25,694 nucleotides of DNA. It comes from Sulfurihydrogenibium sp. Its GTDB lineage: Bacteria; Aquificota; Aquificia; Aquificales; Hydrogenothermaceae. The stretch is taken from the NCBI GenBank assembly GCA_037442825.1, contig JBBIPN010000011.1, positions 1 to 25,694 of the forward strand. The letters run 5' to 3'. Numbering within the stretch: position 1 is the stretch's first letter; every line of letters starts with the position of its first letter. Below, in pieces: positions 1 to 15,000 of this stretch. Position numbers: made by a program.

Positions 1-3000
1 ATGGATTTATACCTTGGGGGATTTACACCTTTAGATAATAGTATTTGTTTTATTAGTTGTTTTTAAATTTTCTAAAAAAGATTTTTAAAGTCATAAAATT
101 AAAATAAACATCTATCTATTCAAAAATTAAACTAATATTTTTTTGTTGACTTTATCATATTTTTAATGTTATAATCACATGATAATATTTCATATAAACA
201 ACAGGAGGATTAACATGAAAAAGTCAGCAGCAATTACGTTATTATCATCGTTTATTTTAGTTTCTAACTCTTTTGCTGAAGATGGTATAAGATTAGAAAA
301 AATAACGGTAGAAGGTAAAAAGCTGGAAGAAAAAACCACAAAAAAGATTGATAAAGAGAACGTTAAAATAACAAGGCAGATAGATTTAGGAGAAATACTA
401 TCAGAATACTACCCAGAAATTTTGTATATGAGAAAAGGCGGGATAGCTAACGATTTATACATAAGAGGATTTTCAAGAGATAATATCAACGTTTTAATTG
501 ATGGTTCTAAGATATATGGAGCTTGTCCAAATAGAATGGATCCACCATCTTTTCATGTATCAAGTCCTCAGATAGAAAATGTTATAATCAAAGAAGGTCC
601 TTTTGATATAGAAAATGCCGGTTCTTTAGCAGCTGTTGTAAATGTTAAAACAAAAGATCCAAAGGAAGGTGTAAGTGGAGAAATAGGTGGAAGTTATGGA
701 AGCTTTAGTTATAGAACAGGTTATATTTGGGGTAATACAGGCAACCAGATTATAAAAGTTTTAGTAGGAGCATCAAACCAATACTCAAAACCTTATGAAA
801 GTGGAGAAGGAAAAAGGGTTACAGAATATTCAGTTTATCAAACACCTATGGGGCCTACAGCAGGTAAATATAAGCCACAATTCATAAATGATAAAGCTTA
901 TAATATAGATAGAGTTTGGACAAAAGTTTTAATAACACCAAAAAATAATGTAGATATTAAATTTTCTTATGCTTTTGAAAATGCGAGGGATGTTTTATAC
1001 CCTGCTTTAAAGATGGATGCTTTGTATGATAGAACTAATAGATTCAATTTTGATTTTAATTTGAAAGATGTTGGTTTAAGATTTAGTGTATATTACAATG
1101 AGGTTAAACACGATATGAGAGATACATTTAGAACCACCTCAAATCCTTTTCCAGCTTTAGGTTATAGTATGAAAACTTACGCAGAATCAAAAATGTTTGG
1201 TACTAAAATTATAAAAGATTTAAATATTTTGGGTATTAATTCATCTATTGGAATTGACACATATTTGAGAAACTGGCTTGCTGATAACGTTCAAAATGGT
1301 GGTGGAAACGTAAACAATGGTATGATTCCAGATGTTAAAATCAAGGATATAGGTATCTTTTTAAAAGGCAATAAAAACATAGATAAATGGAGTATATCTG
1401 GAGGTTTAAGGTACGATTATACGTATTCAAAAGCAAACCCTGATATTATGAGTGCTAATAATAGAAACTTATTTGTAAATAATAATGGAAATAACTTTTC
1501 GAATACAGATAACTATCTATCAGGAAACTTTGTTTTTAAATACAATATAAATAAAAAAGATAATATCTATATTGGATTTGGTAGAACAGTTAGAGTACCT
1601 GACCCAGAAGAAAGGTTTATTGCTCTAACTGGAATGGCTCCATGGTATGGTAATTCAAACTTAAAACCTACAAAAAACAATGAAATAGATACAGGTTTTG
1701 AATATTTCCCTATCAACAATATAGGAATAAAAGCAAATGCATTTTATAGCTTTTTACAAGATTTTATATATCTATATCAATATATGATAGGAACGACAAC
1801 TTATACAACATATCGAAATATAAATGCTGCTATCTATGGTCTTGATTTAAATACTTTTGTAATGATAGATGATAAAATATCAGCTGAGGTCGGTTTAGCT
1901 TATCAAAAAGGTAGTAAAACAGATAAAAAGGGTCTTTATAATGATAGTGATTTAGTAGAAATTCCACCGTTGAAAGGAAGAGTAGCATTAAAGTATGATG
2001 ATTCTAAATTGTATGGATTACTAGAAGGAATATATTCAGCTAAACAATCAAGTGTTGATTCAGATTTGAAAGAGCAACAAACTGGAAGTTGGTTTATCGT
2101 AAATCTTAAAGCAGGTTATACATATGGAAACAAACTTTTTGTAGGTATAGGAGTAGATAATCTATTTGACAGATTTTATTACAACTATCTTTCCTATGTA
2201 AGGGATCCATTTAGAGGTATATCACAAAGCGGTATACCAGTAAAAATACCAGAACCAGGAAGATTTATTTACGCAAACTTATCTTATAAATTTTGACCTG
2301 CTGCTATCAATTTAACTATAAAGGAAGGTTTAAAAGCCTTCCTTTTTATTTTTTTTTCTAAAAAATAAAATCAAACACTGTTTGATTGACAAATTTAAAA
2401 TGTCGTTATATTCTAATTATATTTAAATTTATTTCAAGGAGGATCTTTAATGGGAGAGTATAAAAGACCTACTGTCTCTATAATAGGAGCAGGAAATGTA
2501 GGAGAGCATGTTGCAAATTTAATAGCTATTAGAGAGTTGGCAAATATTAAGCTTTTTGATTTACCGAAAAAAGCAGAAGATAAAGTTTTTGAAATTGTAA
2601 AAGGAAAAGCATTAGATATAAAACAGATGGCAGCTGCAATAGGTGTAGATGTAGATATAAAAGGATATACTGTTACTGCAGATGGTCAAGGATATGAACC
2701 AATGAAAGACTCTGATATAGTAGTTATAACTGCTGGTTTTCCAAGAAGACCTGGTATGAGTAGGGATGATCTATTAACAGCAAACGTAAACATTATAAAA
2801 ACAATCTCAGAAAGAATTGCTTTATACGCACCAAATGCTGTTGTTATCGTAGTATCAAATCCTGTTGATGTTTTAACATATGCTACACTAAAAATAACTG
2901 GATTTAGTAAAAATAAAGTTTTAGGAATGGCTGGCGTCCTTGATACTGCAAGATTTAAAACGTTTATATCCCAAGAACTTAAAATTTCAGTATCAAATAT

Positions 3001-12000: not shown

Positions 12001-15000
12001 TATAGGTTTTGTATTTTCCATATATAAAATATTATATACTTTTTATTACATTTTCAAATTAAAATCGTGCTATAATTTTAGATAGCTTTAAATATTGTAA
12101 TAACTTGATTTTTTAAGCTTATAGTGTTAAATTATTAAAACATTGTTTTAAAAATTTTATCAATTTTAGGAGGTCAAACATTATGACAACCTTAACAGAT
12201 AAAGCTACAAAAGAGATCAGATGGCACGGAAGAGGCGGTCAAGGTACAGTTACAGCTGCAAAAATGTTAGCTTCAGCTGCTATTATTAGAGGAAAATATG
12301 GTCAGGCAATGCCAGAGTTTGGTTTAGAGAGGTCTGGTACACCAGTTAAAGTTTCTACGAGAATTTCAGATAATCCTATAAATACTCGTGCTCCAGTTGA
12401 TAAACCTGAAATAGTTATTATAACAGATCCATCTATTATGTTTACTATAAGGGATATCATAGTTTCTGGAATAGATGAGAATACAGTATTTATAGTTAAT
12501 ACTAATTTCCCGCCAGAAAAAGTTAGACAGATTTTAGGTATTTCGAATAATGAACTTTGGATTGTAGATGCTTCTAAAATAGCTTTAGAAGAGTTTGGAA
12601 AAAACATACCAAACACTGCAGTTTTAGGTGCTGTAGCTAAATCTACTGGTTTAGTTGATTTAGATGCTTTAGAACAAGAAATTTCAGAGGCTTTTGAAGC
12701 AAGCTCAAAACTAAGGGCTTTACTTGAGCAAAACTTAAAAGCTTTAAGAAGAGGTTATGAAGAAGTTTATAAAGCTTAATTAAACTTAGGAGGTTATTTT
12801 TCATGTATGAACTTAAAAAATGGTTTGAGATACCTATAGGTTCTATAGTTCCAGAAACTGGTTCAAGTATGATGAATAATACTGGTTCTTGGAGAATGTT
12901 AAGACCGGTATTAAATACGGAGAAATGTACTAACTGTTTAATCTGTTGGATATTCTGTCCAGATGATAGTATTCCTGTTAATAAAGAACAAAGATTTGAA
13001 ACAGATTTTTACTATTGTAAAGGTTGTGGTATCTGTGCAGTAGAGTGTCCTTATGATGCTCTTGAAATGGTTCCAGAGATGGAAATTAAACTTAAAGAGC
13101 TTGAGTAATTATTAGGAGGATATAATCATGCCAACAAAAGTAATAGCATTAACAGGTAATCAAGCTGCAGCAGAAGCTATGAGGCAGATTAACTTTGATG
13201 TAGCTGCAGTATATCCTATATCTCCACAAACAGAATTGATGGGTTTCTTTGCAGAGTATGTTGCAAACGGAGAAGTTAATACAGATATGGTTGCAGTTGA
13301 AGGTGAACATTCTGCAATGGCAGCATGTATAGGAGCTGCAGCAGCTGGTGCAAGAGTTATAACGGCTTCGGCAGGACCTGGTATAGCTTATATGGTAGAA
13401 AATCTTTATATAGCCTCAGGTATGAGATTACCAATAGTTCTTATCGATGTTAACAGGGCATTATCTGCTCCATTATCTATTCACTGTGATCACGGAGATT
13501 CTATGCTTACAAGAGACTCTAGCTGGATATCTTTATTCTCAGAGAATGCTCAAGAAGCTTATCATAACTTAATCATGTCTGTTAAAATTGCTGAAAAAGC
13601 AATGTTCCCAGTTATAGTAAACTATGATGGTTATATAGTATCTCATTCTATTGAAAACGTAGAGATACTAGATGATGAAACAGTTAGAAACTTTGTCGGA
13701 CCATCAGATATCCATAGAATACCTTACCCATTATTAGATGTTTCTAAACCTGTTACATATGGTGCTACTGCACAACCAGACTACTATACAGAATGTAAAT
13801 ATCAGCAGCATGTAGATTTCTTAAAAGTTTATGATATAGTAAAAGAAGTATCTCAAGAGTTTGAAGCAATAAGTGGTAAATACTATGGATTTATTGAAGA
13901 GTATATGACTGATGATGCAGAATATATAGGTATATCTATGGGTTCATCTTTTGGAACACTTAAAGATGCTGTAAATGCACTTAGATCTCAAGGTAGGAAG
14001 GTGGGTGCTATTAAGATAAGACTATATAGGCCATTTCCAGTAAAAGATCTTGCAACTGCTTTAGAAAATGCGAAAGGTGTTGTTGTGTTTGATAGAGCAG
14101 ACTCTTTTGATGGTATTGGTGGACCATTATTTAAAGATGTTGCTGCTGCTATATTCCACAATAAAAATAGACCATATCTCCATAACTTCATATATGGATT
14201 AGGTGGAAGGGAAATTAATGAAGAAGAGTTTATAAGAGCACTTGATAGATTAGAAAGATTAGAAAAAGGTGTAGAAACAAGAGAAAATTTAGTTGAATAC
14301 TTACAAGCGAGGGCGTAATCATGGCAAAAAAAGTAACTATTCAAGTTTTAGCTGATTTAGCTCAAGAAAGAGAAGAAAAGTATAACTCTCACAACCCATT
14401 AGCTCCTGGTCATAGAATGTGTATAGGGTGTGGTATACCACCGATAGTAAACGAAGTATTACTTGCTATAGATAAACCTGTAGTTGTGTCTACTGCAACA
14501 GGTTGTTTGGAAGTTACAACAGGAGTTTATCCATATACAGCTTGGAATACTCCTTGGATTCACGTAAACTTTCAATCTGCTGCTGCTACAATAGGTGGTG
14601 TTGAAGCTGCTTATAAAGTATTAAAGAAAAAAGGTTTAATTGATGAAGATATTGCTTTTGTTGCTTTCGGTGGAGATGGTGGAACATACGACATAGGTTT
14701 TCAATCTCTTTCTGCTGCAGTAGAGAGAGGACATGATTTCTTATACGTTTGTTATAACAATGAAGGATATCAAAATACTGGGTATCAAAAATCATCAGCA
14801 ACACCAATAGGTGTGTACACTAAAACTACACCAGTAGGTAAAGAAAAAATAGGAAAACAAGAACCAAGAAAAGACCTAACAATGATTATGGCTGCTCATA
14901 GTATCCCTTATGTAGCTCAAGCATCACCCCATATATATAGAGATTTAACAAGAAAAGTTAAAAAAGCTATGACATTTAAAGGTCCTAAATTTATAAACAC

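What a model noticed while it worked through the whole genome (the two positions that open the first line are those of the whole stretch)
2360..12160. One 17-bp palindrome (AT-A/C-AAACA-N-TGTTT-G/T-AT) precedes every reductive-TCA-cycle operon
A palindromic operator, core AAACA-N-TGTTT, stands in the promoter region of all operons of the reductive TCA (CO2-fixation) cycle of this genome and of the ferredoxin and NADH-dehydrogenase genes that feed it, and almost nowhere else. It defines a carbon-fixation regulon under one, still unidentified, DNA-binding protein.
Evidence so far: Unbiased scan of all 5+5 palindromes with 0-10 nt spacers ranked it second after the FNR-type box. AACA-N-TGTT: 62 copies, 16 intergenic, against 0-5 intergenic of 11-128 copies for eight control words. 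A weight matrix from 10 sites scores 15 places >=15.7 bits and all 15 are intergenic, while 36 of the 40 weaker hits are inside genes. Places: mdh-fumAB-sucCD g00445 (C11:2370), 2-oxoglutarate:Fd oxidoreductase g00450 (C11:7025), pyruvate:Fd oxidoreductase g00453 (C11:12135), isocitrate dehydrogenase g00544 (C14:21098 and 21021), ATP-citrate lyase g00545 (C14:23460), aconitase g01338 (C80:567), fumarate reductase frdA g00269 (C5:26961) and frdB g00351 (C8:7858, not in the training set), ferre [...]
(Added by a program. Inside this text positions count along the whole contig: contig position 1 is position 1 of the stretch shown here. "Call 12" and the like, gene names such as g00115 and contig names such as C1 are that model's own, and its searches are not shown. 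The text may have been shortened before it was handed on; [...] marks where a part breaks off. The agent that wrote the report below was given it as the finding of a first reader that could run no searches.)

Follow-up and report, generated by a model that had tools for sequence, protein, structure and literature searches.

The report
IclR operator of carbon-fixation genes
A 17-base DNA palindrome in front of all CO2-fixation (reductive TCA) operons of this hot-spring-type bacterium is most likely the operator of an IclR-family repressor whose DNA-reading and metabolite-sensing jobs appear to be split between two separate genes.

Summary
The box is real: 2370-2386, 7025-7041 and 12135-12151, consensus WTMAAACR-N-YGTTTKAW. 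It precedes all eight rTCA transcription units, ferredoxin and NADH-dehydrogenase genes, and is kept in relatives. It fits the IclR group-2/KdgR operator type. The likely reader is IclR-A (C48:7501-8169). Across 178 genomes of the phylum the box tracks IclR-A. Three genomes of one IclR-bearing genus that lack the gene also lack the box. In Aquificaceae iclR-A is divergent from icd (17 of 21 loci), with the box at that junction. A further paralog sits beside two boxes ahead of acs-actP. Geobacteraceae homologs share the recognition helix; G. sulfurreducens GSU0514, probably of that clade, represses sucCD. New: IclR-A co-occurs with IclR-B (C47:6147-6941), often tail-to-tail. A keeps the helix-turn-helix but lacks about 35 residues of the sensor domain; B keeps the sensor but its helix-turn-helix has decayed. 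A model supports an A-B dimer, possibly by likeness to solved homodimers. Box positions from -50 to +2 suggest repression. Binding, sign and effector are untested.

The parts
2370..2386 (.). Operator box 1, perfect palindrome, centre about -44; its last base is the first base of the predicted -35 hexamer (2386-2391) of the mdh-fumAB-sucCD promoter
   Evidence: kept before mdh in 18 of 22 family genomes and 0 of 8 Aquificaceae
2395..2411 (.). Possible weak second box over the mdh -10 region, 25 bp from box 1; partly explained by the -10 itself
   Evidence: 10.9 bits
2450..6988 (+). mdh-fumA-fumB-sucC-sucD operon (oxaloacetate to succinyl-CoA branch)
7025..7041 (.). Operator box 2, centre about -50, just upstream of the predicted -35 (7047-7052) of korAB
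   Evidence: a box before korA in 10 of 10 relatives
7059..7075 (.). Degenerate second kor box over spacer and -10, 34 bp from box 2; this position holds the best-scoring box in 8 of 10 relatives
   Evidence: 8.9 bits here
7124..9841 (+). korAB, two-subunit 2-oxoglutarate:ferredoxin oxidoreductase type
   Evidence: substrate assignment from family and gene context
12135..12151 (.). Operator box 3, centre about +2, covering the predicted transcription start of the por operon (-35 at 12105, -10 at 12128)
   Evidence: 26 of 29 orthologous porC promoters
12183..15352 (+). porC-porD-porA-porB, four-subunit pyruvate:ferredoxin oxidoreductase type

Best explanation
The box is the operator of IclR-A, a 222-residue IclR-family regulator encoded elsewhere in this genome (C48:7501-8169, minus strand), present once in every genus of the family. 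It most likely represses the whole reductive TCA cycle, its electron supply (ferredoxin, nuoEF, complex I genes) and, in relatives, acetate uptake and activation, by covering the -35, the -10 or the start site. Repression would be lifted when a central carboxylate metabolite signals carbon need. The signal is probably read not by IclR-A, whose effector domain lacks about 35 residues, but by IclR-B (C47:6147-6941), which keeps a full effector domain but has lost the conserved DNA-reading helix; the two would act together. Shown: box, targets, conservation, co-occurrence, gene adjacency, reciprocal domain decay. Inferred: binding (about 0.9), repression (about 0.7), A-B partnership (about 0.6). 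The effector is a guess (a 2-oxoacid or dicarboxylate).
For: (1) Motif type: IclR group 2 is TGRAACA-N1-2-TGTTYCA and KdgR is RWWGAAACGNCGTTTCAKKA (PMC8222616); the core AAACR-N-YGTTT is the same. (2) Phyletic match: IclR-A, IclR-B and the strict box occur in the same 13 of 34 genera, plus one stray box hit, with 1 reversed-pattern control hit in 178 genomes. Relaxed pattern: 396 hits against 56 controls in the 75 genomes with A or B; 25 against 32 in 102 without (one 76%-complete family genome without either gene but with 3 boxes set aside). (3) Natural losses: in genus g17 all 16 IclR-positive genomes have boxes; G048, G053 and G058 (86, 91, 99% complete) have no A, B, IclR_C domain or box. 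Box at the icd start 16 of 17 IclR-positive against 0 of 5 negative; acs 5 of 5 Aquificaceae against 0 of 5. (4) Adjacency: iclR-A divergent from icd in 17 of 21 Aquificaceae loci; paralog A2 directly before a boxed spacer in 4 of 4 loci, followed by porin-acs-actP in 3; strong box before iclR-A in G009. (5) Closest outside relatives are full-length IclRs of Deltaproteobacteria, NC10 and Geobacteraceae with the same recognition helix; their own promoters carry a box-like site, median 8.1 bits in 71 regions against at most 7.4 for 40 shuffled matrices. GSU0514 is described as repressing sucCD (PMC7894505 passage); its cloning primer encodes the same N-terminus as these proteins (PMC2817479 passage). 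(6) Reciprocal decay: helix-turn-helix identity between the two families 78% in A, 24% in B; segment 149-190 filled 18% in A, 99% in B. A and B together in 68 of 75 genomes; tail-to-tail in 13 of 16 g17 and 2 of 2 g23 genomes (coordinates). (7) Complex model: score 0.69, best control 0.00 (mark reached by 116 of 157 solved complexes and 2 of 215 mismatched pairs; runs agree in at least 89% of contacts, partner pLDDT at least 86); solved IclR homodimers exist, so this may show likeness only. (8) Box centres lie at -50, -45, -44, -41, -40, -17, -1 and +2 of predicted promoters, and swap between orthologous genes.
Against: No binding or expression data. This genome's own iclR-A has no box (best -6.5 bits) and lies next to no target. 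Other regulators were not screened for the same phyletic pattern, and genomes are not independent. Several right half-sites double as -35 or extended -10 elements, which inflates their conservation. The fixed -40 position at acnB, aclB and some mdh promoters is also a class II activator position. The position outside the core is A/C here, G in the group-2 consensus. In Geobacteraceae only one half-site is usually intact, and one of 40 shuffles reached the same fraction of sites >=10 bits (0.41 against 0.39). A symmetrical box is read most simply by an A-A dimer, which an A-B dimer alone does not explain. The tree leaves A and B as sisters unresolved; no A-B fusion was found (weak). G123 and G046 have both genes but no relaxed-pattern hit.
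Confidence: 0.62

Rival explanations
1. IclR-A is the reader but acts alone as a homo-oligomer; IclR-B has a separate job, or only sequesters A in a non-binding heterodimer (anti-repressor).
For: The box is symmetrical; A keeps some invariant effector-domain residues (E100, Y114, V124, R129, P190, R193); A and B are unlinked in this family and in g15; the modelled interface is the ordinary IclR dimer interface.
Against: Near-perfect co-occurrence and joint loss; B has no conserved recognition helix with which to do a separate DNA job; A lacks the segment whose absence goes with loss of ligand binding in the second domain of PobR (PMC5814911 sections 24-25; the match of segments is my inference).
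Confidence: 0.17
2. The IclR pair is a dual regulator: it activates promoters with the box at -40 to -50 (mdh, acn, acl, frdB, ferredoxin) and represses those with the box on the -10 or start site (por, frdA, icd, nadA).
For: acnB box at an almost fixed distance from the -10 in 28 of 28 genomes, also where the -35 is poor; the family includes activators and dual regulators.
Against: Aconitase and sucC boxes lie at the start site in Aquificaceae and icd moves from -17 to about -50 between families; opposite control of consecutive steps of one cycle is hard to rationalise; the Geobacter homolog is described as a repressor.
Confidence: 0.13
3. Another, unidentified protein reads the box; the IclR genes merely share its distribution.
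For: No direct binding data; no screen of all regulators; kin share many genes.
Against: Two independent gene adjacencies, an autoregulatory site, a family-typical motif, joint loss inside one genus and a similar site at Geobacteraceae homologs.
Confidence: 0.06
4. The motif is a by-product of AT-rich promoters and shared -35/-10 elements.
For: Genome is 29% GC; right half-sites overlap promoter hexamers.
Against: Left half-sites are equally conserved at different promoter positions; reversed controls are near zero; the box persists in Aquificaceae genera with IclR and is absent from family f3 (0 of 8) and at background in f5.
Confidence: 0.02

Closest known systems
IclR-family group-2 operators (KdgR; Thermotoga TM0065, PDB 1MKM)
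   Same: Palindrome core AAACR-N-YGTTT; winged helix-turn-helix plus effector domain; 1MKM is the top fold match of IclR-A and the top sequence match of the Geobacteraceae homolog.
   Different: Flanks are WTM...KAW, not TG...CA; global control of CO2 fixation, not a local sugar-acid or aromatic operon; no Aquificales genome name and no protein with this recognition helix found in the 2021 survey's main text or supplements.
Geobacter sulfurreducens GSU0514 (IclR repressor of sucCD) and its clade
   Same: Geobacteraceae IclRs have A's recognition helix (75% identity) and B's N-terminal arm and full effector domain; sucCD is a target in both; box-like site in their own promoters.
   Different: One full-length protein there, two complementary ones here; regulon here spans the whole rTCA cycle. 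I saw only passages citing the GSU0514 work and its cloning primer; the original paper was not held, so its binding sequence was not compared, and identity of my homologs with GSU0514 rests on the N-terminus.
Streptomyces coelicolor PobR (SCO3209), fused double IclR
   Same: Two unlike IclR units pair through their DNA-binding domains; only one effector domain binds ligand, the other lacks helix 7 and a ligand loop.
   Different: One polypeptide; both recognition helices are predicted to bind DNA; local aromatic operon. Here two genes, with DNA reading lost in the sensing unit.
Geobacter HgtR (ribbon-helix-helix repressor of gltA, icd, frd, nuoA, atpG)
   Same: One repressor over TCA-cycle and energy genes (passages).
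   Different: Other protein fold and other site; no effector domain.

Membership tests
IclR family (IclR-A) | N-terminal winged helix-turn-helix, PF09339 | tested here: met
   55.5 bits, cut-off 22; the only match in this genome
IclR family (IclR-A) | Complete C-terminal effector domain, about 250 residues in all | tested here: not met
   PF01614 is hit and the fold is IclR, but the protein has 222 residues and lacks most of segment 149-190 of full-length homologs
IclR family (IclR-B) | Conserved DNA-reading helix-turn-helix | tested here: not met
   Not found by PF09339 at E<=0.001 in this genome; 24% identity between families, 16% to the Geobacteraceae homolog
IclR family (IclR-B) | Complete effector domain | tested here: met
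   Full-length match to KdgR, PcaR and BhcR models at about 157 bits; many invariant residues
IclR group-2 motif | TGRAACA-N1-2-TGTTYCA | tested here: inconclusive
   Core and 1-base spacer match; the outer G/C pair is A or C / T or G here
IclR group-2 motif | Tandem sites 18-22 bp apart, common in the family | tested here: not met
   Commonest spacings are 25 and 33-34 bp, then 62, 81, 159
KdgR, BhcR, IclR, PcaR orthologous groups | NCBIfam cut-off | tested here: not met
   A 89 and B 157 bits against 275 for KdgR; all others also below cut-off
GSU0514 clade | Same recognition helix and N-terminal arm | tested here: met
   Helix in A, arm in B; branching order with this clade unresolved
GSU0514 clade | Same experimentally mapped operator | not testable with these tools
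   Original paper not held; only a box-like site in homolog promoters
PobR-type double IclR | Two IclR units in one polypeptide | tested here: not met
   Separate genes, convergent or unlinked; no fusion of this clade among longer proteins (weak)
IclR repressor | Binds the operator; effector releases it | not testable with these tools
   Needs biochemistry

The most novel reading that the evidence does not exclude
Aquificales control the entire reductive TCA cycle, its electron supply and acetate use through an obligate heteromeric IclR repressor that arose by splitting one ancestral protein's jobs between two genes: a reader subunit that cannot sense and a sensor subunit that cannot read DNA. 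A swappable reader paralog (A2) was later recruited to the acetate module.
Probability: 0.5. Interest if true: 0.85.

Novelty: new variant of a known kind. Interest (0 to 1): 0.72.

Why it matters
I found no transcription factor or operator described for the reductive TCA cycle of Aquificales in the library searched (listings only). This gives a named protein pair, an operator and a target list, so the question of how these primary producers of hot springs and vents tune CO2 fixation against acetate use becomes a direct gel-shift and ligand-screen experiment. It links that control to the Geobacter regulator tied to growth by the reversed oxidative TCA cycle. A two-gene IclR with reading and sensing divided did not appear in my searches (listings only); the nearest case is the fused PobR.

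Tried and rejected
Own unbiased 4+4 and 5+5 palindrome scan: the motif was not in the top 40. FNR reading: the box holds the two FNR half-words in inverted order with a 7-base gap (FNR consensus recalled), so it is not an FNR site. Autoregulation in this genome: no box before iclR-A. KdgR orthology: below cut-off. A-B fusion: none found (weak). Plasmid search with IclR-A gave only distant family members. Scan of GTDB contigs with the IclR-B alignment returned Aquificales and then 27-34% identical generic IclRs. No RNA holder listed for the window, so start sites are predictions. The careful tree did not finish; the quick tree is quoted. The original GSU0514 paper was not held, which leaves its operator sequence uncompared. 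Earlier findings of this scan: nothing shown. The five-subunit oxidoreductase and actP were not found in this genome with the queries used.
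Full report
OBSERVATION. The window holds mdh-fumAB-sucCD (2450-6988), korAB (7124-9841) and a four-subunit por operon (12183-15352). Each is preceded by the box: 2370-2386, 7025-7041, 12135-12151. The genome (1.35 Mb, 137 contigs, 29% GC) has 62 AACA-N-TGTT. A matrix from seven sites also finds boxes before icd (two), aclB, acnB, frdA, frdB, ferredoxin, nuoH, nuoE-nuoF and a second nuoCD; frdB, ferredoxin and the nuo sites were not in the training set. 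So all eight rTCA transcription units carry it. PEP synthase, acs and the biotin-carboxylase genes have no strong box. With a matrix refined on relatives 12 of 19 hits at 12 bits or more are intergenic (7.9% of the genome); 30 shuffled palindromic matrices gave a median of 0, two gave 6 and 9.

CONSERVATION. Family names below are inferred from source names of close homologs: f1 Hydrogenothermaceae (own family), f2 Aquificaceae. Boxes at 12 bits or more stand before korA in 10 of 10 relatives, porC 26 of 29, porD 12 of 30, aclB 14 of 30, acnB 28 of 28 (of 30 loci, two lacked usable upstream sequence), frdA 19 of 30, mdh 18 of 22 in f1 and 0 of 8 in f2. Each search returned loci for the best 30 matches only. 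Consensus of 156 distinct sites: WTMAAACR-N-YGTTTKAW with A-rich flanks; these sites were selected by pattern, so the consensus is partly built in.

WHICH PROTEIN. The core equals that of KdgR (RWWGAAACGNCGTTTCAKKA) and of IclR group 2 (TGRAACA-N1-2-TGTTYCA) (PMC8222616: abstract, introduction part 1, passages and supplement searches). The genome has one PF09339 hit, IclR-A at C48:7501-8169. Among 178 genomes of the phylum it occurs in all 10 genera of f1 and three genera of f2 (72 genomes after removing two cross-hits). The strict pattern occurs in the same 13 genera plus one stray hit, and its reversed control once. The relaxed pattern gives 396 hits against 56 controls in the 75 genomes with IclR-A or -B, and 25 against 32 in 102 without; one incomplete f1 genome lacking both genes but holding 3 boxes was set aside. 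Within g17 the 16 IclR-positive genomes all have boxes, the three negative ones none; these three may be one loss. At the icd start the box is present in 16 of 17 positive and 0 of 5 negative genomes, before acs in 5 of 5 positive Aquificaceae and 0 of 5 negative. In 17 of 21 Aquificaceae loci iclR-A is divergent from icd across about 100 bases (one across about 400); the box lies in that spacer in g17 and, in five g15 genomes, best in the first codons of icd. A paralog A2, nested among f1 A proteins, lies directly before a boxed spacer in 4 of 4 loci examined, followed by porin-acs-actP in three and by phage-like genes in one. G009 has a strong box 38 bases before iclR-A. This genome's iclR-A has none.

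OUTSIDE RELATIVES. A profile search of all protein representatives puts full-length IclRs of NC10 and Deltaproteobacteria next, and these lead to Geobacteraceae proteins with the same recognition helix. In 71 distinct upstream regions (of 80 metagenome loci; short or duplicate ones dropped) the best matrix score has median 8.1, above all 40 shuffled matrices (at most 7.4); the fraction at 10 bits or more, 0.39, was reached by one shuffle. The site is mostly an intact left half between the -35 and -10. G. sulfurreducens GSU0514 is described as an IclR that represses sucCD, in the setting of lactate and formate adaptation; the same paper notes data that challenge this role on hydrogen (PMC7894505, passages). 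Its cloning primer encodes the N-terminus seen in these proteins (PMC2817479, passages). The original study was not held.

THE SECOND SUBUNIT. IclR-B (C47:6147-6941, 264 residues) has the same distribution: 71 genomes, same 13 genera; 68 of 75 genomes have both, and the 7 with one are drafts of 90 or more contigs, six of them 85% complete or less. The genes are tail-to-tail in 13 of 16 g17 genomes (two cut by contig ends, one apart) and 2 of 2 g23, unlinked in f1 and g15. On 13 matched genomes, identity between families in the helix-turn-helix is 78% for A and 24% for B (75% and 16% to the Geobacteraceae protein); segment 149-190 is filled 18% in A and 99% in B; the N-terminal arm and first half of the effector domain are better kept in B. 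A and B are each one clade that follows the family split; whether they are sisters is unresolved (quick tree). A model of A with B scored 0.69 against a best control of 0.00 (mark reached by 116 of 157 solved complexes and 2 of 215 mismatched pairs; runs agree in at least 89% of contacts; partner pLDDT at least 86), through helix 1 and the linker, the usual IclR dimer surface; since IclR homodimers are solved this may be likeness only. The fused PobR of Streptomyces is a precedent: two IclR units, one ligand site, the other lacking helix 7 (PMC5814911: abstract, passages, sections 24-25).

MECHANISM. Against predicted sigma-70 promoters the box centre is at about -44 (mdh, frdB), -45 (ferredoxin), -50 (kor, with a second site on the -10), -41 and -40 (acl, acn), -17 (icd), -1 (frdA, weak site at nadA) and +2 (por, second nuoCD). 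Sites on the -10 or start can only block; orthologous genes switch class between families. I therefore read one repressor of carbon acquisition, covering CO2 fixation, its electron supply and acetate scavenging, released or tightened by a central metabolite bound to B. A 2-oxoacid or dicarboxylate is a guess by analogy with glyoxylate- and succinate-bound family structures listed. The symmetrical box needs two A helices, so A2B2 or an A dimer modulated by B are both open. The fixed -40 position at acnB leaves dual control possible.

LITERATURE. Nine full-text searches (listings and abstract starts only unless stated above) showed no description of this operator, of an Aquificales IclR regulon or of a two-gene split IclR. 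Subscription papers are mostly missing from the library, and other supplements were not seen. One more passage was read (PMC3962221).

VERDICT. Observation confirmed; interpretation supported and extended. New variant of a known kind; interest 0.72.

Noticed in passing
L035:1777-1793 (G037) and icd of G041, G042, G044, G047: In genus g15 the first codons of icd themselves spell a strong box, about 81 bases from a weaker spacer site: an operator written into coding sequence.
   Followed up: partly
L367, L368, L369 and others, +136 inside the iclR gene: In 13 of 80 Geobacteraceae-type loci the codons of the recognition helix match the operator core; probably coincidence.
   Followed up: no
L194:4536-14900 (G136): The boxed spacer after iclR-A2 is followed by phage-like structural genes instead of porin-acs-actP, as if a prophage entered there.
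   Followed up: no
L268, L274 and others, between porC and porD: A second strong box inside the por operon in 12 of 30 relatives; absent in this window (12780-12810).
   Followed up: partly
G000 C8:17107 and C8:19876; C128:817; C25:14059: Boxes before nuoA (weak), inside the nuo operon before nuoH, before a second nuoCD and before a separate nuoE-nuoF pair.
   Followed up: partly
L163, L196, G000 C113:1168: nadA carries a strong box in two relatives and a weak one here, suggesting NAD synthesis is in the regulon.
   Followed up: partly
G000 intergenic DNA, genome-wide: An FNR-type word (TGAT-N4-ATCA) occurs 25 times against 2.7 expected; its regulon was not examined.
   Followed up: no
window 19624-20109 (+): 161-residue protein with a weak match to the ferredoxin-thioredoxin reductase FtrB family.
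   Followed up: no
window 21176-21682 (-): SpeD-like gene by recalled resemblance; window 18469-18663 and 23043-23231 look like small metal-binding proteins (CDGSH-like, rubredoxin-like), unchecked.
   Followed up: no
L157, L169 (G013); Aconitase type differs across the family (acnB not found with this query in g5, g6, g2); G013 has the box before another aconitase type and two isocitrate dehydrogenases in tandem.
   Followed up: partly
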